A DNA stretch of 6,480 nt from a virus (Duplodnaviria; Heunggongvirae; Uroviricota; Caudoviricetes), in IMG/VR virus record IMGVR_UViG_2740892268_000008. One strand, written 5' to 3'. Below the pieces are notes generated by a model that saw only the letters and a list, made by a program, of their open reading frames with translations, was not told the DNA's origin and made no database searches. The stretch's first letter is position 1; each line of letters opens with the position of its first letter. This document shows positions 1 to 6,480 of the stretch, piece by piece. The position numbers and the translations under genes were made by a program.

Positions 1-98
1 GGGGAATATCTCCCCGGCAGCCTTCAGGGAAAAATATCATCAGATGGCTGCTTAAAAAAAGAACAAATGGTAGTGTCCGCTATTGCCAGTACACCTCA
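1..98. repeat. Left copy of a 98-bp perfect inverted repeat; partner at 6383-6480
   Basis: Reverse complement of 6383-6480 equals 1-98 base for base; identity ends at position 99. The outermost 15 nt (GGGGAATATCTCCCC) is itself a small hairpin-capable palindrome. Confidence 0.95.
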
Positions 99-443
99 GG
101 ATAGCGGTCATGTGATGCCGGTTTCCCGGTAACTCAGCACCGGTATCTGAGTCAACGTTTTCTCTACTGGGTCATTTCCGATACGCCCTGCCTGCTGACA
201 GGCTTTCATCACATCTGAAAATATAGCACCCTGACTGATACTGTAGTACCTAAGGTTCCAGAAACTGTGATGTATCCGGNNNNNNNNNNNNNNNNNNNNN
301 NNNNNNNNNNNNNNNNNNNNNNNNNNNNNNNNNNNNNNNNNNNNNNNNNNNNNNNNNNNNNNNNNNNNNNNNNNNNNNNNNNNNNNNNNNNNNNNNNNNN
401 NNNNNNNNNNNNNNNNNNNNNNNNNNNNNNNNNNNNNNNNNNN

Positions 444-520
444 NNNNNNNNNNNNNNNNNNNNNNNNNNNNNNNNNNNNNNNNNNNAGGCAATTGCTCTG
501 TCCGGCTGAGCTAACAACGC
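444..520 (-). tRNA. tRNA, partial; only the 5' third is visible and the anticodon is masked
   Basis: Minus strand from 520 reads GCGTTGT-TA-GCTC-AGCCGGACA-GAGC-A-ATTGC-CT..., i.e. acceptor 5' strand, D stem/loop and start of the anticodon stem with U33 in place, then runs into the N block. The low end (444) is extrapolated from a typical 76-77 nt length. Confidence 0.5.
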
Positions 521-533
521 ATGATGCAGATAA

Positions 534-610
534 TGGACCGCCATCGGGGACTTGAACCCCGCGCAGCCAGCTTCGAAGGCTGGCGCTCTTTCCTGATGAG
601 CTAATGGCGG
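534..610 (-). tRNA. tRNA-Arg, anticodon UCG as read from the sequence
   Basis: 77-nt minus-strand cloverleaf: acceptor CCGCCAT/ATGGCGG, D stem GCTC/GAGC, anticodon stem CCAGC/GCTGG with loop CTTCGAA, T arm CGGGG-TTCAAGT-CCCCG, discriminator T and encoded CCA. Confidence 0.8.
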
Positions 611-617
611 TATGTGA

Positions 618-693
618 TGGTGGCCCTTGCTGGATTTGAACCAGCGACCTGGCGATTATGAGTCGCTCGCTCTCACCACTGAGCTAAAGGGCC
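618..693 (-). tRNA. ileZ: tRNA with anticodon CAU, tRNA-Ile2 (lysidine) type rather than Met
   Basis: 76-nt minus-strand cloverleaf GGCCCTT...AAGGGCC-A-CCA with anticodon loop CTCATAA and T loop TTCAAAT. The anticodon arm GCGACTCATAATCGC matches what I recall of E. coli tRNA-Ile2 (ileX), and Stx-type lambdoid phages carry an ileZ-arg-arg tRNA trio. The symbol is from memory, not a search. Confidence 0.8.
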
Positions 694-733
694 GGGAGCC
701 GCATAATAACGACGCGTAATTAATTCTTCAATA

Positions 734-1802
734 TCATCCGTTCTGGCTGACTAAATCCTGTACTTCCCGAACCGTCTGCTCAAAACGTTCAGTCTCCAGC
801 TCAACGCCAATTGCACGACGCCCGAGCGCCAGTGCCGCTTTCACTGTCGAACCCAACCCCATGAAAAAATCTGCAATCAGGTCACCCGGACGACTGCTAG
901 CGNNNNNNNNNNNNNNNNNNNNNNNNNNNNNNNNNNNNNNNNNNNNNNNNNNNNNNNNNNNNNNNNNNNNNNNNNNNNNNNNNNNNNNNNNNNNNNNNNN
1001 NNNNNNNNNNNNNNNNNNNNNNNNNNNNNNNNNNNNNNNNNNNNNNNNNNNNNNNNNNNNNNNNNNNNNNNNNNNNNNNNNNNNNNNNNNNNNNNNNNNN
1101 NNNNNNNNNNNNNNNNNNNNNNNNNNNNNNNNNNNNNNNNNNNNNNNNNNNNACCCGGGCAAACAGCGCCTGTAATTTCAGATAATCGCTTTCATTCGGC
1201 AACTGCCACTGACCGGCACTGAACCAGTGCGACACCATGTTTTTCTTTCCTGTGGCATCTGCAATCTGTTTTGCCGTTATCCCCAGGGCAGCTCGCGCAT
1301 CACGAAAGTAAGAAATCAGCGGGGCCATCACATGCTGTTTCAGTGCACTGCCCTTCGCCGCATACCCGGCATCTTTCGGACGATACGGCCCCTGATAATG
1401 TTCCGCGAACAGAATGCGCTCTGTGGCGGGGAAATACGCCCGCAGGCTTTCCTTGTTGCATCCGTTCCAGCGTCCGGACGGCTTCGCCCAGATAATATGG
1501 TTCAGCACACTGAAGCGTTCACGCATCATGATTTCGATATCAGATGCCAGGCGATGACCACAGAACAGGTAAAGACTTCCGGCAGGTTTCAGCACCCGCC
1601 AGAACTGCGCCAGACACTGGTCCAGCCACTTCAGGTAATCATCGTCGCCCTTCCACTGGTTATCCCAGCCCTCAGGCTTCACTTTAAAGTACGGCGGGTC
1701 CGTGACTATCAGGTCAACAGAATTTTCGGGTAACGACCGGATAAATTCCAGGCAGTCGGCGTTGATTAACTCACAACTGGATATTTTTACAGTATTAAGC
1801 AT
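734..1802 (-). CDS. DNA methyltransferase, beta-class (N6-adenine or N4-cytosine), probable orphan phage methylase; middle masked by N
   Basis: N-terminal part (ORF 897-1802) carries the catalytic DPPY motif (LIVTDPPYF). C-terminal part (ORF 734-1162) carries the AdoMet motif region PGDLIADFFMGLGST...LGRRAIGVELE. DPPY before FxGxG is the beta-class order. The two parts are in different frames as numbered across the 250-nt N block. Confidence 0.8.
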
Positions 1803-1894
1803 GGATCATTAAGCCTGTCTCTGATAGGCTCATTCTGCTTTTGCGCAAAGCAGTGGGCCTGAGGTTTGCTTGTGAACCCAACGCATGAGCAGAT

Positions 1895-1925
1895 GGCTGG
1901 TGGGTGCCCCTAACACCCACCAGCC
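1895..1925. repeat. Perfect 12-bp inverted repeat with a 7-nt spacer (GGCTGGTGGGTG-cccctaa-CACCCACCAGCC)
   Basis: Read directly. It sits about 90 bp upstream of the methyltransferase start and just downstream of a terminator on the minus strand, so it could be an operator or an RNA stem-loop. Confidence 0.6.
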
Positions 1926-1938
1926 GCCCATTTACCAC

Positions 1939-1966
1939 AAATAAAAAAGCCTTCACTGCGGAAGGC
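1939..1966 (-). terminator. Rho-independent terminator candidate (minus strand)
   Basis: Minus strand GCCTTC-CGCAGT-GAAGGC (6-bp perfect stem) followed by TTTTTTATTT. It overlaps the stop codon of the 65-aa ORF. Confidence 0.55.
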
Positions 1967-2150
1967 GTCTGTAACAACCGAACTGATAGTCTGCCAGACC
2001 CGCCATAACCAGCTGGGTCAGTATTAACTGGCAGCGTTCGCGTGAAAGGTAAGTATTCTGCGCTATCTCCCCGACTGTCGCCGGTTCGGTAACGCTTAAT
2101 TCATTAAACACCACTCTGGCGGTTTCTGTCATATCCTGCTGTTTTAGCAT
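1953..2150 (-). CDS. Hypothetical small protein (65 aa), first ORF downstream of the Q-associated promoter and terminator
   Basis: ORF with AAGGA about 7 nt upstream of the ATG and a terminator hairpin at its 3' end. No family recognised. Confidence 0.45.
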   Translation of the reverse strand: MLKQQDMTETARVVFNELSVTEPATVGEIAQNTYLSRERCQLILTQLVMAGLADYQFGCYRRLPQ

Positions 2151-2270
2151 GTCTTTTCCTTTTCCGGTTAACGTGACACACCAATAACTCTTGTCGAAAA
2201 AGCCAGCAAGCTGAAAGACAGGTATTCACCGCCACCAGCGCGTTTACTGTACTGACGCGATTTCAGTCAT

Positions 2271-2292
2271 AAAAAAACCGCTCGGCGGCGGG
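2271..2292 (-). terminator. Intrinsic terminator candidate, tR'-like, about 45-65 nt downstream of the putative late promoter
   Basis: Minus strand CCCGCCGCCGAGCGG (short GC stem CCGC/GCGG) followed by TTTTTTT. The position mirrors the pR'-tR' arrangement next to Q in lambdoid phages. Confidence 0.45.
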
Positions 2293-2341
2293 TTGTAGAA
2301 ACTCTTCTAACGTCAGGCATAAAACGCCCATCGTTATGACG

Positions 2342-2369
2342 AATTTACCACAGATTCCGGAAAAATCAA
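2342..2369 (-). promoter_or_regulatory. Sigma70 promoter candidate (pR'-like late promoter) immediately downstream of the Q stop codon
   Basis: Minus strand TTGATT (-35, 2364-2369), 16-nt spacer, TGgTAAATT extended -10 (2342-2350). Lambdoid Q genes are followed directly by the late promoter and qut site. Confidence 0.4.
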
Positions 2370-2374
2370 CCTTG

Positions 2375-3196
2375 TTACCTAGTTACCTTTTTTAACTGCC
2401 GCTCAGCCCATGCTTCTTCAATATCAAACCGGGTCACCAGCGCATCATAAAATTTCTTAACTGTTTTTTCCCATGACGCGCGTGTTATCTGGTTTGTCAC
2501 CTCGCATATAGCATTAAATGCCTCCGTTGATGGTAGTCTTTCATAGCCACGACCACCACAACGCTGGCAGTCTCTGATAACAGGCATACCACGTTTTACC
2601 GACTCTTCACGATGAATGGCGACACCACGCCCACGGCAATCCTTACAGGCGGTGGAAACCTCACCCTTTCCGCCACACTCCGGACAGGCAACTTTTACCA
2701 CCTCCCTGACTTTTTTCCATTCTTCCCAGTAAGACGGATACACACCTTTCGTACACTTTGCCCATACCGGCGGCTTACCATCCGGATACTGGATCTTGTT
2801 TGTAAAAACCTCGCTTTCAATAAATTTTTTTCCGTGACAGCAGGGGCACTGTTTTTTGCTCGCCGCGCTACGGGCATAATCTTCAAACGCATACGAAGCC
2901 ATAATACGCATCACTGCCGGTTTTATTTCTGCCGGGAGTTTTCTTAACGCCGCCACGCGATCACACCGACTGAGTGCATATTCTGTCAGCAATTCTGTTG
3001 CCCGCTCTCTGTCATTCATACTAATGCCCATTTTCCCAAGGAACGCAGAAACCCCCATCTCAGCCCGATTCTGTGTCATGCCCTGCGCGGCCATCACATC
3101 AGTGATACTCAGCGCATCTTTCGACGTTGAGGCCGATGCATCAGTCAGGCCGGGGGATTTTGGGGAGTAGTATTTCGGTAAATCTTCCAGTTTCAT
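2375..3196 (-). CDS. Late-gene antitermination protein Q-like (QuuQ/Antiterm-type, 273 aa) with four CxxCxGxG zinc-binding repeats
   Basis: Sits directly downstream of rusA with an ATGA start/stop overlap and directly upstream of a promoter plus intrinsic terminator. Carries CPCCHGKK, CPECGGKG, CKDCRGRG and CQRCGGRG motifs. Family assigned from context and motifs, not a search. Confidence 0.65.
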   Translation of the reverse strand: MKLEDLPKYYSPKSPGLTDASASTSKDALSITDVMAAQGMTQNRAEMGVSAFLGKMGISMNDRERATELLTEYALSRCDRVAALRKLPAEIKPAVMRIMASYAFEDYARSAASKKQCPCCHGKKFIESEVFTNKIQYPDGKPPVWAKCTKGVYPSYWEEWKKVREVVKVACPECGGKGEVSTACKDCRGRGVAIHREESVKRGMPVIRDCQRCGGRGYERLPSTEAFNAICEVTNQITRASWEKTVKKFYDALVTRFDIEEAWAERQLKKVTR

Positions 3197-3570
3197 TTTT
3201 TGACCTGCCCTTCAAGCATTATGGGATAAATCTTCACCCCCAGACGTCCACCAGATACTGGCTGAGCACGAACGATATTGATTTCATCAAACTGCTCATC
3301 GTCCATTAGCAACCCCGCATGCGTCAGCGCATCCAGCGGCGCTTTCAGAATATTGTCCAGGTCACGGCGGCGCTTATCCGGTGGTTCTGCAATAATTTTT
3401 ATTGCCAACCTTCCGGACAGGCTTAATTTCAGCCGCTGCTGGCGAACAATAAGCGCCACTGCCCGGCGANNNNNNNNNNNNNNNNNNNNNNNNNNNNNNN
3501 NNNNNNNNNNNNNNNNNNNNNNNNNNNNNNNNNNNNNNNNNNNNNNNNNNNNNNNNNNNNNNNNNNNNNN
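3193..3570 (-). CDS. rusA: Crossover junction endodeoxyribonuclease RusA (Holliday junction resolvase); N-terminus masked
   Basis: Visible C-terminal 88 aa contain PDKRRRDLDNILKAPLDALTHAGLLMDDEQ, matching the RusA catalytic region ([30 protein letters not shown] in E. coli RusA, from memory). The frame stays open into the N block; the 5' end is estimated from a ~120-aa RusA length. Confidence 0.8.
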   Translation of the reverse strand, partial: XXXXXXXXXXXXXXXXXXXXXXXXXXXXXXXXXXRRAVALIVRQQRLKLSLSGRLAIKIIAEPPDKRRRDLDNILKAPLDALTHAGLLMDDEQFDEINIVRAQPVSGGRLGVKIYPIMLEGQVKK

Positions 3571-3571
3571 N

Positions 3572-4640
3572 NNNNNNNNNNNNNNNNNNNNNNNNNNNNN
3601 NNNNNNNNNNNNNNNNNNNNNNNNNNNNNNNNNNNNNNNNNNNNNNNNNNNNNNNNNNNNNNNNNNNNNNNNNNNNNNNNNNNNNNNNNNNNNNNNNNNN
3701 NNNNNNNNNNNNNNNNNNNNNNNNNNNNNAAATCATCAGCCTTTGTTCCCATCCCTCCCAGTCCATGACCAATGATGTGATGCGGATCATCTGCCTGATT
3801 GCCACACGTCATGCATTTCTGCGTTTTTACCCAGCGCGTGTATACAGGCATCTCTTCCCGTTGTGATTTCTGGCGCTGGAGATACTGAGCCGGTGACTCC
3901 GGATCAACGGCAATGCTGACCACCGTCTTTTCCTGTGGTGGGTTCTGTTGCTGGTGGACGTGAGGCAGTAACGCAATATTTTTTGTGCGCTGCTTCAGTA
4001 TGCTGGTGGCTGTCTGCTCTCCCGGTATGATGTCGCTTTCACTGTACACAGAGCGAATTTTTTCCGCACGCAACCCCAGCGAACGACGTAATACCGCTTC
4101 CGGTAGCGCGTCCGCCACCTGATTGCGGACCGCCCACCAGGATAATTCAGCCAGAGATAATTCACGCTCCTGCGTACCGCTTATTGCGTGACCGATGACG
4201 TCAATCATCCATGCTGACAGGTTTTGATGAGCAAGTTGCTCGAGTGATTCGGATGTCTGGTCACGCAGCTGGTTGTCGCAGTGCCAGCACAACACCATTG
4301 CGCCGGTACCATAACGGTGAATGACGGTTTCGCTGTGATGATAATCGCCGTGTGGCCACTGGCAGGATTTAATATGGCGCAACAGCCAGTCAGACAATGC
4401 ACCAGCACCACCAGCAGCACGAATCACCCGTGCGTTACTGAAAAACGGCAGCAATGTTTTGTCTTCCACCAGCGGCTGGCGAGCGGCAGGAACGACCCCG
4501 GACGGCAGATTACGCATGCTTTTTGGTTCCGGCTCCACCAGTATTCTGCCGTTATGGAATGCTGACATTGATTCACGGCCTGGCTTAACGATAACCAGAC
4601 CGAGTTCCGGTACCAGAACAGGTCGAAGTAATACCCGCAC
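3572..4640 (-). CDS. DUF968/YdfU-like prophage protein with an HNH-like CxxC...HH motif; 3' end masked
   Basis: Long minus-strand ORF from a GTG at 4640 (GGAGG 4 nt upstream; alternative ATG at 4568) into the N block, sitting just upstream of rusA and Q as YdfU does in Qin-type prophages. CMTCGNQADDPHHIIGHG lies just before the mask. The 3' coordinate is an estimate. Confidence 0.55.
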
Positions 4641-4715
4641 ATTACCTCCAGATCCGTTGCTGGAATGTGCGGGACGGACGCGTTGGCCGTTCGGAGTAAG
4701 GGAGCCTGACGGAGA

Positions 4716-4997
4716 TTATCCAGTGACGGTAGTCGAGGCTAAGGGCTTTTTTAACCTCGCATCCGCGCCTGCGGTAACACTGAATGAGCCATTCGGCCTG
4801 TTCTTCAGTGCATGGGGGATGCTGGTACCAATCAGATTTAAATGCGTGAGAGCGCCGCCCGTGCCTGCTGGCAAAGACGGCTGAATTATCAGAATTGTGT
4901 AGTCTGGAAGGCAGTGGCTGACAATAGCGCCATTCTCAACGCGCACAGTATAGAGGCCATCTTCACTAAAAATTTCACGTAATTCTTCGATTTTCAT
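4716..4997 (-). CDS. Hypothetical small protein (93 aa) in the position occupied by rem in Qin-type prophages
   Basis: ORF with GGAAGGA about 8 nt upstream of ATG 4997. It is in the same frame as the downstream DUF968 ORF, separated by one TAA at 4716-4718 and 25 sense codons. Confidence 0.5.
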   Translation of the reverse strand: MKIEELREIFSEDGLYTVRVENGAIVSHCLPDYTILIIQPSLPAGTGGALTHLNLIGTSIPHALKNRPNGSFSVTAGADARLKKPLASTTVTG

Positions 4998-5080
4998 CAA
5001 CAGAATCCTTCCAGATAAATAGCACTCCCCTGTTCGGGGTCCATCCCTCTTCTCCCTGCGCGCTACTTAAGTATTTTTGA

Positions 5081-5109
5081 TTCTATTCCGGCACCATCTA
5101 AAACTTCAA
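5081..5109 (-). promoter_or_regulatory. Sigma70 promoter candidate upstream of the 93-aa/DUF968/rusA/Q gene block
   Basis: Minus strand TTGAAG (-35, 5104-5109), 17-nt spacer, TAGAAT (-10, 5081-5086). A 10-bp perfect palindrome TACTTAAGTA lies just downstream at 5066-5075. Confidence 0.35.
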
Positions 5110-5117
5110 ACGCGTTG

Positions 5118-5149
5118 AAAATAAAAACAAAAACCCGCCGAAGCGGGTT
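5118..5149 (-). terminator. Rho-independent terminator at the 3' end of the hok transcript
   Basis: Minus strand AACCCGC-TTCG-GCGGGTT (7-bp stem, TTCG loop) followed by TTTGTTTTTATTTT, about 70 nt downstream of the hok stop. Confidence 0.7.
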
Positions 5150-5217
5150 AAGTGTGGGTGCATTGAGGATGCCTGACCCATCAGAGGTGGCGAGGGATTT
5201 CTCCCCCGCCTGGTCTC

Positions 5218-5373
5218 TTACTCCTCAGGTTCGTAAGCTGTGAAGACAGCGACCTCCGTCTGGCCGGTTCGAATTCGTACCTCGCAGAGGTCTTTCCTCG
5301 TTACCAGTGCCGTCACTATGACGGTTAAACAGATGACGATCAGGGCGATTAACATCGCCTTTTGCTGCTTCAT
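5218..5373 (-). CDS. hokD: Hok/Gef-family type I toxin (51 aa small membrane toxin), HokD/RelF-like
   Basis: MKQQKAMLIALIVICLTVIVTALVTRKDLCEVRIRTGQTEVAVFTAYEPEE matches my recollection of HokD/RelF and is unmistakably Hok family. AAGGAG lies 9 nt upstream of ATG 5373. The track's 70-aa ORF is an in-frame upstream extension from ATG 5430. Context differs from K-12 hokD because no relBE lies upstream. Confidence 0.85.
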   Translation of the reverse strand: MKQQKAMLIALIVICLTVIVTALVTRKDLCEVRIRTGQTEVAVFTAYEPEE

Positions 5374-5549
5374 AGCCTGCTTCTCCTTGCCTTTCGGCAC
5401 GTAAGAGGCTAACCTAGATTTGCCGTTCATAGATTGAGCCTCAGATTAATGTTAAGCGTCTTGCCGGACGCGTAATGTTAACTGGGGCTTTTCTCTATCT
5501 GCCTTTTGGTGTTCATGCCTGAGACAGATAGCCTCAAGCACCCGCTGCA

Positions 5550-5577
5550 ATTCTACTTAACTCTCCTTTTCCCGCAA
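5550..5577 (-). promoter_or_regulatory. Sigma70 promoter candidate for the hok mRNA
   Basis: Minus strand TTGCGG (-35, 5572-5577), 16-nt spacer, TAGAAT (-10, 5550-5555). From here to the terminator at ~5120 the transcript would be about 420 nt, the size class of known hok mRNAs. Confidence 0.35.
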
Positions 5578-5584
5578 ACCGTTT

Positions 5585-5668
5585 TTATCCCCAGCGGCAA
5601 ATCGAATACACCACCAGCGCCACCGCCATCGCAATTCCTACCGTTGTTAATGCTTCAGGCCAGGTCAT
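5585..5668 (-). CDS. Small hydrophobic peptide (27 aa, [27 protein letters not shown]), candidate single-pass membrane peptide
   Basis: Absent from the ORF track because it is short. ATG overlaps the stop of the 114-aa gene (ATGA), GGAGGA lies about 10 nt upstream, and the product has a ~17-residue hydrophobic core. Confidence 0.35.
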
Positions 5669-6009
5669 CGTAAAATATCCTCCACGCTTATCAGTCCGTT
5701 CCGCTCCAGATAACTCATCGCCTTATCCGGTAATTTGCAGTCTGGCTTCGCTTTCCTCAGTTGCCAGGTTAACTGCTTTACCAGCATGGTTAACTCATCG
5801 ACCAGACGCTGATATCCCACTGGTTTGTATTCATGCAATTTACCGGCTGGCTCTGCTGCCAGCGATACCAGTGCGATTTCCAGAACAGCAATATCCATCT
5901 TATATGTGCGGATGATGTCATGGTCGATTGTGCCCGGTATGCACAGTCTCTGTGCTTCAATAGTCTCCTCTGCGTGAGCTATTAACTGCTCTCTGGTAAA
6001 AGTCGTCAT
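5665..6009 (-). CDS. Hypothetical protein (114 aa), paralogous at its N-terminus to the upstream 55-aa protein
   Basis: ORF with AAGGGG upstream; ATGA overlap with the 55-aa gene. Shares the N-terminal MTTxTxE and an IALxSLxAEP segment with the 55-aa product. Confidence 0.55.
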
Positions 6010-6173
6010 GCCGTAGCCCCTTCTTGATATTTTTCAAACCAGAACACAACCGGCTCTGCTTCCAGCGATGCCAGCGCAATCCGTGCCAGTTCCATTTGTT
6101 CACCACGGGTAAGCCCGTTTTCAAGCGGGTTTTTAATGAACAATTCAATACGTTCTTTGGTAATAGTGGTCAT
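6006..6173 (-). CDS. Hypothetical small protein (55 aa, [55 protein letters not shown])
   Basis: Not in the ORF track (under 60 aa). Strong AAGGAG 6 nt upstream of ATG 6173; its stop overlaps the start of the 114-aa gene. The track's ORF 5957-6148 is in another frame over the same DNA and is the less likely reading. Confidence 0.5.
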
Positions 6174-6183
6174 GTGTTACTCC

Positions 6184-6414
6184 TTAACCCGCAGTGCTTT
6201 CAACTGATGAGGGGAACAAAATCTTTTCATCAAACCCTGCATTCATATCATGAACAGCAACACACCAATCCATCGACGAACGATTATCAAGAGCCTCCAT
6301 GATTTCATCCATGCGGCGTAGGTCATACAGGTAAATGCTTTTATCGCCAATGGTGTAAAAGCCAATTTTTTTCGGTGATGGATGAGGTGTACTGGCAATA
6401 GCGGACACTACCAT
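6184..6414 (-). CDS. Hypothetical protein (76 aa from ATG 6414), possibly the 3' part of a longer gene starting beyond the right edge
   Basis: ORF from the track. No convincing Shine-Dalgarno before ATG 6414, and the frame has no stop from 6414 to 6480, so the true start may lie outside the window. Its first 11 codons lie inside the right inverted-repeat copy. Confidence 0.4.
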   Translation of the reverse strand: MVVSAIASTPHPSPKKIGFYTIGDKSIYLYDLRRMDEIMEALDNRSSMDWCVAVHDMNAGFDEKILFPSSVESTAG

Positions 6415-6480
6415 TTGTTCTTTTTTTAAGCAGCCATCTGATGATATTTTTCCCTGAAGGCTGCCGGGGAGATATTCCCC
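6383..6480. repeat. Right copy of the 98-bp perfect inverted repeat; partner at 1-98
   Basis: Exact reverse complement of 1-98. Confidence 0.95.

What the first reader, a model, noticed from the sequence alone, without database searches (positions are those of the whole stretch)
1..98. Perfect 98-bp inverted repeat sits exactly at both window termini (1-98 and 6383-6480)
The two ends are exact reverse complements over 98 bp and diverge abruptly at position 99 / 6382. Between them lie 6.3 kb of prophage genes: the tRNAs, methylase, Q, rusA, hok and the small-gene array. Inverted copies of this length are substrates for RecA-dependent inversion, which would flip the whole block. Alternative explanations are an inverted duplication scar or a snap-back assembly artefact. 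The repeat edge falls inside a coding frame at codon 11 of the 76-aa ORF, which looks more like a rearrangement junction than a designed recombinase site, and no invertase or transposase is present. The outermost 15 nt (GGGGAATATCTCCCC) are themselves palindromic.
Basis: seen in the sequence. Interest (0 to 1): 0.6.

Follow-up and report, generated by a model that had tools for sequence, protein, structure and literature searches.

The report
IS600 ends capping a Shigella contig
The 98-base inverted repeat is the same end of the common insertion sequence IS600, cut short at both ends of a short-read Shigella sonnei contig because two full, oppositely oriented IS600 copies flank this prophage remnant: real but ordinary.

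Summary
Positions 1-98 and 6383-6480 are perfect reverse complements.

The repeat is not a 98-bp element. It is the right end (IRR plus the last 17 codons and stop of the transposase OrfB) of IS600, an IS3-family element. It matches annotated IS600 copies at 100% in 2,887 of 5,426 complete E. coli genomes.

Prophage homology in E. coli stops exactly at 98/99 and 6382/6383. The hybrid 76-aa ORF across the right junction is a Shigella sonnei protein.

Complete S. sonnei chromosomes carry two full 1,264-bp IS600 copies, inverted, on either side of this 6.28-kb block.
- The tRNA-side copy is a clean insertion with a 3-bp duplication (TCC). Two strains still have the empty site.
- The other copy interrupts an 87-aa phage gene and has no duplication, so its outer flank has been rearranged.

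The length of 98 nt is set by where the assembler stopped. Another S. sonnei assembly keeps only 47 nt at the same junction.

None of the roughly two dozen complete chromosomes read shows the block flipped. Snap-back artefact, duplication scar and composite transposon are rejected. Already known; low interest.

The parts
1..98 (+). Right end (IRR side) of IS600 'copy B', truncated by the contig end. It holds the last 17 codons of OrfB (2-52, GNISPAAFREKYHQMAA), the stop TAA at 53-55, and the terminal inverted repeat ending ...ACACCTCA at 98. The rest of the element lies to the left, outside the window.
   Evidence: 100% match to annotated IS600 transposase ends. In L002 the IS600 spans 2001-3264 and its transposase CDS ends at 2044. 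In complete S. sonnei chromosomes a full 1,264-bp copy sits here (L003 16398-17661).
99..101 (.). GGA (TCC on the other strand): the inner copy of the 3-bp target-site duplication made when IS600 copy B inserted between the tRNA cluster and the nanS-like esterase gene.
   Evidence: L003 and seven other loci read ...CCGCTATCC|IS600|TCCTTCCAGG. The empty site CCGCTATCCTTCCAGG is present in L004 and L009.
99..6382 (-). 6.28-kb lambdoid prophage remnant, all genes on the minus strand. Contents: truncated 87-aa gene, 55-aa and 114-aa ORFs, hok-type toxin (5218-5373), DUF968 (about 3582-4640), RusA (from 3193), Q antiterminator (2375-3196), 65-aa ORF (1953-2150), N6/N4 DNA methyltransferase (734-1802), tRNA-Ile2 (CAT anticodon, 618-693) and tRNA-Arg (534-610). 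Three stretches are masked as N (280-486, 903-1152, 3470-3729).
   Evidence: ORFs and tRNAs. Pfam families of the identical genes in L003. Collinear with the E. coli 042 prophage at 89-100% identity, with homology ending exactly at 98 and 6382.
6184..6414 (-). Hybrid 76-aa ORF. The first 10 codons (MVVSAIASTP) are read from the IS600 end; the remainder is the 3' two-thirds of an 87-aa phage gene whose first 22 codons were cut off by the insertion.
   Evidence: The intact homologue in E. coli 042 is at L001 10651-10914. The exact protein is named as Shigella sonnei hypothetical/prophage protein Q3Z0Y9_SHISS and occurs on 832 contigs.
6380..6382 (.). GGA: the target triplet next to the IRR of IS600 copy A. 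Its partner triplet is not on the other side of this IS. In complete genomes it lies 2.2 kb away, inverted.
6383..6480 (-). Right end (IRR side) of IS600 'copy A', truncated by the contig end. It is the mirror image of 1-98; the rest of the element lies to the right, outside the window.
   Evidence: A full 1,264-bp copy is at L003 8769-10032.

Best explanation
The window is a whole short-read contig from Shigella sonnei. It holds a 6.28-kb piece of a degraded lambdoid prophage that, in the chromosome, lies between two full-length (1,264 bp) copies of IS600. The copies are in opposite orientation, each with its right end (IRR) facing the block.

IS600 is multicopy, so the assembler could not extend past the point where the sequence stops being unique. 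It therefore left the same 98 nt of IS600 on both contig ends.
- The inner edge of the repeat (98/99 and 6382/6383) is biological: it is the IS600 terminus.
- The outer edge is technical. It is consistent with k-1 of a k=99 de Bruijn graph; that value is an inference.

The two copies have different histories.
- The tRNA-side copy arose by ordinary IS3-type transposition, with a 3-bp duplication, and is polymorphic among strains.
- The other copy inserted into an 87-aa phage gene, and its outer flank was later rearranged.

The pair is a potential substrate for homologous inversion. The fixed arrangement in the sequenced strains is the un-inverted one.
For: **Identity of the repeat (shown).**
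- The 98 nt match IS600 ends at 100%. They occur in 2,887 of 5,426 E. coli genomes, at up to 43 places per genome, and are annotated 'IS3-like element IS600 family transposase'.
- In L002 the element is 1,264 bp, and the 98 nt cover the 3' end of the transposase CDS.
- IRL and IRR are alike only over about 27 nt. Two perfect 98-nt arms must therefore be the same end of two separate copies.

**Junctions (shown).**
- Prophage homology in complete E. coli genomes ends exactly at 98 and 6382.
- None of the 5,426 genomes spans either junction.

**Source and full structure (shown).**
- The junction-spanning 76-aa protein is a S. sonnei protein.
- It lies in complete 4.8-5.0 Mb chromosomes in the order IS600(+) - block - IS600(-) - SASA esterase - holin.
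- The window aligns to these chromosomes at 99.9-100% identity. Both IS copies are full length there.

**Mode of origin (shown).**
- Copy B has the duplication TCC on both sides, and L004 and L009 keep the empty site.
- An E. coli IS600 copy shows a 3-bp duplication, GCG.

**Truncation is technical (shown, plus inference).**
- Both arms stop at the same 98 nt.
- Another S. sonnei draft contig (L013) stops 47 nt into IS600 at the same junction.
- 599 of the 795 index blocks carry the protein only on contigs of 2-10 kb.

**Literature.** S. sonnei carries hundreds of IS copies that fragment assemblies, and IS600 is one of the five expanded IS (PMC12795559; PMC7373316).
Against: - The source record of the window was not found. 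A genome-contig scan for the left junction gave 0 hits. 'Whole contig' and 'k=99' are therefore inferred from the symmetry of the ends, not read from an assembly graph.
- Copy A has no target duplication, so its history is not a simple insertion.
- The window differs from all the complete genomes by 1 SNP. Its N-runs differ in length from the corresponding sequence, so the exact strain is not among the loci fetched.
Confidence: 0.93

Rival explanations
1. Recombinationally invertible cassette. The two inverted IS600 copies are used by RecA-dependent recombination to flip the Q-tRNA-hok block, giving two orientations within or between S. sonnei populations.
For: - The copies are 1,264 bp long and 6.3 kb apart. 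They differ at 0-3 positions, and are identical in L003.
- Alleles at three variable IS positions are shuffled between copies A and B across strains. This is compatible with gene conversion among IS600 copies.
- IS600 pairs recombine on pINV (PMC5629016), and IS-flanked inversions are known in S. sonnei (PMC12795559).
Against: - Every complete chromosome read has the same orientation. That covers 25 contigs (10 shown, 13 listed as similar) and one more.
- On the tRNA side the block is collinear with its outer flank exactly as in E. coli 042.
- The allele shuffling could come from other IS600 copies, or from short-read polishing of long-read assemblies.
- The S. sonnei structural survey inspected only rearrangements above 7 kb, so it is uninformative here.
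Confidence: 0.05
2. Assembly artefact. A snap-back or chimeric join created a false terminal inverted repeat that does not exist in the genome.
For: The repeat sits exactly at both ends of the sequence, and both arms have the same length. This is typical of assembler behaviour.
Against: More than ten independently assembled complete S. sonnei chromosomes contain both IS600 copies, at the same two junctions and in inverted orientation. Only the length of the arms is technical, not their existence.
Confidence: 0.01
3. Composite transposon. The IS600-block-IS600 structure moved as one unit into its present site.
For: Two copies of one IS bracket a DNA segment in inverted orientation.
Against: - The outer flanks carry no common duplication: TTT on one side and TCC on the other.
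- Copy B has its own duplication, and strains with the empty site still contain the block.
- The block sits in its native position and order within the prophage, as in E. coli 042.
- The outer ends would be two IRLs.
Confidence: 0.01

Closest known systems
IS600 (IS3 family, IS3 group), first described in Shigella sonnei
   Same: - 100% identity over the 98 nt, and 99.7-99.9% over 1,264 bp in the flanking full copies.
- TG...CA termini and imperfect terminal inverted repeats.
- 3-bp target duplication.
- OrfAB transposase with programmed frameshift and rve (DDE) domain.
   Different: Nothing about the element itself differs. Only 98 nt of each copy is inside the window. Copy A lacks a duplication because its outer flank was rearranged.
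IS-bounded contigs in short-read Shigella assemblies (repeat-collapsed de Bruijn graph nodes)
   Same: - The contig ends a fixed number of bases into a multicopy IS on both sides.
- The same junction in another assembly ends after a different number of bases: 47 against 98.
- Most assemblies carry this gene on 2-10 kb contigs.
- Fragmentation by IS is described for Shigella (PMC12795559).
   Different: Here both ends happen to be the same IS end in opposite orientation, which produces a conspicuous terminal inverted repeat.
IS600-interrupted defective lambdoid (Stx) prophage of Shigella dysenteriae type 1
   Same: IS600 is inserted in the Q / tRNA / toxin-locus part of a degraded lambdoid prophage in a Shigella chromosome (PMC7819885: IS600 orfA upstream of stx).
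   Different: This is a different species and prophage, and no stx genes are visible here. Whether the insertion site is the same was not tested.
IS-mediated homologous rearrangements in Shigella (e.g. the IS600-IS600 deletion on pINV)
   Same: Pairs of IS600 copies act as portable homology (PMC5629016). In L011 the flank of copy A has been exchanged.
   Different: Those documented events are deletions between direct copies or large inversions. No inversion of this 6.3-kb block was observed.

Membership tests
IS600 / IS3 family insertion sequence | Nucleotide identity to IS600 | tested here: met
   The 98 nt match annotated IS600 copies at 100%. The full flanking copies in S. sonnei are 1,264 bp and 99.2-99.9% identical to an E. 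coli IS600.
IS600 / IS3 family insertion sequence | 5'-TG...CA-3' termini with imperfect terminal inverted repeats | tested here: met
   IRR reads TGAGGTGTACTGGCAATAGCGGACACT and IRL reads TGAGGTAGCCTGAGTTTAACGGACACT. They are alike over about 27 nt only.
IS600 / IS3 family insertion sequence | 3-bp target-site duplication | tested here: met
   Copy B has TCC on both sides, with the empty site present in L004 and L009. The E. coli copy in ninF has GCG on both sides. Copy A does not meet it: TTT against TCC, because its flank is rearranged.
IS600 / IS3 family insertion sequence | OrfA-OrfB transposase made by programmed -1 frameshift, with a DDE (rve) catalytic domain | tested here: met
   RefSeq annotates 'programmed frameshift'. 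The 385-aa products carry HTH_Tnp_1, HTH_21 and rve domains. Only the last 17 codons lie inside the window.
IS600 / IS3 family insertion sequence | Transposition activity | not testable with these tools
   Indirect evidence only. Copy B is present in 9 and absent from 2 of the 11 complete S. sonnei loci shown. The literature reports recent IS600 activity in S. sonnei (PMC7373316).
Composite transposon | One target duplication flanking the whole IS-cargo-IS unit | tested here: not met
   The outer flanks are ...AATTTT| and |TCCTTC.
Composite transposon | Cargo foreign to its surroundings, or the unit found at other loci | tested here: not met
   The block and its right flank are collinear with the E. 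coli 042 prophage. Strains without copy B still carry the block.
Site-specific invertible segment (Hin/Gin/Cin or Fim type) | Dedicated invertase gene in or beside the segment, and short recombination sites at its borders | tested here: not met
   There is no recombinase ORF in the window. The borders are IS600 ends. The nearest recombinase in L003 is a 506-aa large serine recombinase about 7 kb away, beyond chromosomal genes.
Site-specific invertible segment (Hin/Gin/Cin or Fim type) | Both orientations observed | tested here: not met
   A single orientation is seen in all complete chromosomes read.
Linear replicon or transposon with 98-bp terminal inverted repeats | The molecule or element ends at the repeat | tested here: not met
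   In complete chromosomes the sequence continues through the rest of IS600 on both sides. The arms end in the middle of the transposase reading frame.

The most novel reading that the evidence does not exclude
The two near-identical inverted IS600 copies could make the Q antiterminator / tRNA / hok block a recombinational switch in S. sonnei. Occasional RecA-mediated flipping would uncouple Q and its late promoter from the downstream esterase-holin-lysis genes. This would create subpopulations that differ in expression of the cryptic prophage's late genes. Nothing here excludes low-frequency inversion, but no fixed inverted variant was seen, and there is no evidence of any phenotype.
Probability: 0.05. 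Interest if true: 0.3.

Novelty: already known. Interest (0 to 1): 0.08.

Why it matters
It matters mainly as a caution. A striking 'perfect terminal inverted repeat' on a short bacterial contig can simply be two copies of a multicopy IS, truncated by the assembler. The repeat length then reflects the k-mer size, not biology.

Biologically, it documents one more polymorphic IS600 insertion and one IS-associated rearrangement in a decaying prophage next to ompW in S. sonnei. This fits the established picture of IS expansion and genome degradation in Shigella. It opens no new question.

Tried and rejected
- **Source record.** An exact scan of genome contigs for the left junction (41 nt) gave 0 hits. 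The source record was not found there, so I switched to an exact look-up of the junction-spanning 76-aa ORF, which worked.
- **Organism via accessions.** Searching papers for the chromosome accession numbers gave only one useful link, CP060117 in a S. sonnei paper. The organism was settled from the protein names instead.
- **Snap-back or chimeric artefact.** Rejected, because independent complete genomes show both copies.
- **IRL and IRR of a single IS.** Rejected. The two ends of IS600 are alike over only about 27 nt.
- **Composite transposon.** Rejected on the duplication and empty-site evidence.
- **Palindromic 15-mer as a site.** Rejected. It is 10/15 self-complementary, lies inside OrfB codons, and sits at an arbitrary contig end.
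- **Inversion.** Looked for by comparing flanks in all complete loci; none was found. It cannot be surveyed with short patterns, because inversion through the IS leaves both IRR junctions unchanged.
- **SNP patterns between IS copies.** Examined as a trace of exchange. Judged inconclusive because of the many other IS600 copies and possible polishing artefacts.

Full report
**1. Observation**

The window ends are exact reverse complements. Arms 1-98 and 6383-6480 are 98 nt and 100% complementary, with 6,284 nt between them. No other inverted repeat in the window comes close; the next is 26 nt at 73%. Similarity stops abruptly at 99 and 6382.

The 76-aa ORF on the minus strand (6184-6414) starts inside the right arm and crosses its edge after 10 codons.

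The '15-nt palindrome' at the tip is only 10/15 self-complementary: a 5-bp stem with a 5-nt loop.

Two side remarks, the palindrome and 'no transposase', do not.

**2. What the repeat is**

A megablast of the whole window against 5,426 complete E. coli genomes gave lambdoid-prophage matches whose query ranges end at exactly 98 and 6382. The arms therefore do not belong to the prophage.

The 98 nt alone match 2,887 of those genomes at up to 43 places each, at 100% identity. The matches lie under features annotated 'IS3-like element IS600 family transposase'.

In one annotated copy (L002, E. coli E2865) the element is 1,264 bp (2001-3264). The 98 nt cover its end and the last codons of the transposase CDS, which ends at 2044.

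In the window this places the end of the OrfB reading frame at 2-52 (GNISPAAFREKYHQMAA), with the stop TAA at 53-55 on the plus strand. The mirror image lies on the minus strand at the right end.

The two ends of IS600 resemble each other only over about 27 nt:
- IRR: TGAGGTGTACTGGCAATAGCGGACACT
- IRL: TGAGGTAGCCTGAGTTTAACGGACACT

Two perfect 98-nt arms must therefore be the same end (IRR) of two different copies, lying in opposite orientation.

**3. Where it comes from and what lies beyond the window**

No complete E. coli genome spans either junction. Queries 1-279 and 6180-6480 always split at the IS boundary.

The junction-spanning 76-aa protein is an exact match to a Shigella sonnei protein (Q3Z0Y9_SHISS; 'hypothetical protein [Shigella sonnei]'). 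It is found on 832 contigs.

An exact look-up found it in 795 index blocks, including 83 with contigs over 1 Mb. In complete 4.8-5.0 Mb chromosomes the order is:

ompW region ... DUF977 (-) | IS600 transposase (+) | 76-aa ORF, 55 aa, 114 aa, hok, DUF968, RusA, Q, methyltransferase, tRNAs | IS600 transposase (-) | SASA-family esterase, holin.

The window aligns as a reverse complement to L003 9935-16495 at 99.96-100% identity outside its N-masked stretches. Both IS600 copies there are full length:
- copy A: 8769-10032
- copy B: 16398-17661

The copies differ from each other at 0-3 positions depending on the strain. The real inverted repeat is thus 1,264 bp. The window shows only the inner 98 nt of each copy.

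**4. Why 98 nt**

The inner edge is the IS600 terminus. The outer edge is the end of the sequence, and it is the same 98 nt on both sides.

A different S. sonnei draft assembly (L013, a 3,648-nt contig) starts at the very same junction but keeps only 47 nt of IS600.

Of the 795 index blocks, 599 hold this protein only on contigs of 2-10 kb. This is as expected if assemblers break at both IS copies.

Shigella genomes carry hundreds of IS copies that fragment short-read assemblies, and IS600 is one of five expanded IS (PMC12795559; PMC7373316).

I infer that the window is a whole contig and that 98 = k-1 for k = 99. This is an inference from the symmetry, not read from an assembly graph. The source record itself was not found.

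**5. How the two copies arose**

*Copy B (window left end)* is a textbook IS3-family insertion. In eight loci it reads ...CCGCTATCC | IS600 | TCCTTCCAGG.... Two strains (L004, L009) carry the empty site CCGCTATCCTTCCAGG with a single TCC.
- Window positions 99-101 (GGA) are the inner copy of that 3-bp duplication.
- A second instance of a 3-bp duplication (GCG) is seen in the E. coli copy in ninF.
- Copy B lies between the tRNA cluster and the esterase gene. Sequence on both sides is collinear with the E. coli 042 prophage.
- The block has therefore not been inverted relative to that flank.

*Copy A (window right end)* interrupts an 87-aa phage gene (042 homologue at L001 10651-10914).
- The insertion replaces the gene's first 22 codons with 10 IS-derived codons, giving the 76-aa hybrid ORF.
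- Copy A has no duplication: its flanks are ...AATTTT| and |TCCATC. Its outer flank has therefore been rearranged (see section 8).

**6. Does the block invert?**

The repeats are inverted, 1.26 kb long, 6.3 kb apart and essentially identical, and the species is recombination-proficient.

IS600 pairs are documented recombination substrates in Shigella (a pINV deletion, PMC5629016). IS-flanked inversions occur in S. sonnei.

However, every complete chromosome read has the same orientation: 25 contigs (10 shown, 13 listed as similar) and one more.

Alleles at three variable IS positions are distributed differently between copies A and B in different strains. This could reflect gene conversion. 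Other IS600 copies or polishing artefacts explain it equally well.

Inversion through the IS leaves both IRR junctions unchanged. It therefore cannot be detected in short-read contigs or by pattern searches. Only long reads can settle it.

**7. Rivals rejected**

- *Snap-back or chimeric artefact:* refuted by the independent complete assemblies.
- *Inverted duplication scar:* refuted by the separate origin of copy B.
- *Composite transposon:* the outer flanks carry no shared duplication, the cargo sits in its native prophage position, and strains without copy B still have the cargo.
- *Site-specific invertible element:* no invertase, the borders are IS ends, and only one orientation is seen.
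- *Linear element with terminal repeats:* the sequence continues into IS600 on both sides, and the arms end in the middle of a reading frame.

**8. Side observation on copy A**

The missing 5' fragment of the 87-aa gene lies 2.2 kb to the outside, inverted (L003 6543-6611). It still carries the target triplet.

It is fused in frame to the 3' third of a lambda-type integrase gene next to ompW. Homology to intact integrases stops exactly at L003 6542.

The break is therefore precisely at the former IS600 IRL boundary, yet no IS is there now. The integrase-side sequence at the joint (TGTGGTGT) resembles the IS600 terminus (TGAGGTGT).

The joint is conserved in eight of the ten S. sonnei loci checked. 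I could not work out the mechanism; it is recorded as unexplained.

**9. Verdict**

This is an ordinary, already-known kind of structure: two IS600 copies flanking a prophage remnant in S. sonnei, seen through the keyhole of a short-read contig. Novelty: already known. Interest: low (0.08).

The most novel reading not excluded is a low-frequency recombinational flip of the Q-tRNA-hok block with regulatory consequences (probability about 0.05).

Noticed in passing
L003 6192-6611 (outside the window; beyond IS600 copy A at window 6383-6480): The 5' fragment of the IS-interrupted 87-aa gene, still carrying the 3-bp target triplet, sits 2.2 kb away in inverted orientation. It is fused in frame to the 3' third of a lambda-type integrase gene next to ompW. 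Homology to intact integrases ends exactly at the joint, and the integrase-side bases (TGTGGTGT) resemble the IS600 terminus (TGAGGTGT). This suggests a transposase-related break at a pseudo-end. The mechanism is unresolved.
   Followed up: partly
window 280-486, 903-1152, 3470-3729: Three N-masked runs of 207, 250 and 260 nt. The corresponding stretches in the near-identical S. sonnei chromosome L003 are 306, 240 and 252 nt, and the first two have the same lengths in E. coli 042. The N-runs therefore do not preserve true length, or the source strain has indels there. The first run hides a third tRNA (tRNA-Arg in 042).
   Followed up: partly
window 4909/4910: The window and most S. sonnei loci lack 250 bp that L004 and L009 retain (L004 11506-11755). 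The extra sequence there carries a Rem-family gene (PF27490) and the start of a 92-aa gene. This is a small deletion polymorphism inside the block.
   Followed up: no
L004 and L009, 20108 onward: The two strains that lack IS600 copy B have another IS600, also inverted relative to copy A, about 3.5 kb further out, beyond the holin and DUF1327 genes. The IS600-bounded inverted pair there encloses about 10 kb instead of 6.3 kb.
   Followed up: partly
L011 8700-8768 and L008 1-8100 (left of IS600 copy A): Two complete chromosomes have different DNA to the left of copy A. In L011 it changes right at the IRL boundary. In L008 a Mu-like prophage (Com, Mom, a Gin-like invertase) replaces the ompW side. 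This shows that IS elements here have served as rearrangement break-points.
   Followed up: no
IS600 copies A and B in L003-L012, positions 285, 715 and 1142 counted from the IRR end: Alleles at three variable sites are distributed differently between the two copies in different strains, and the copies are identical in L003. This is compatible with gene conversion among IS600 copies, or with polishing artefacts in the long-read assemblies.
   Followed up: partly
window 618-693: ARAGORN calls this tRNA-Met (CAT anticodon). RefSeq annotates the homologous gene in E. coli 042 as tRNA-Ile, that is, the lysidine-modified ileZ type typical of lambdoid and Stx phages.
   Followed up: no
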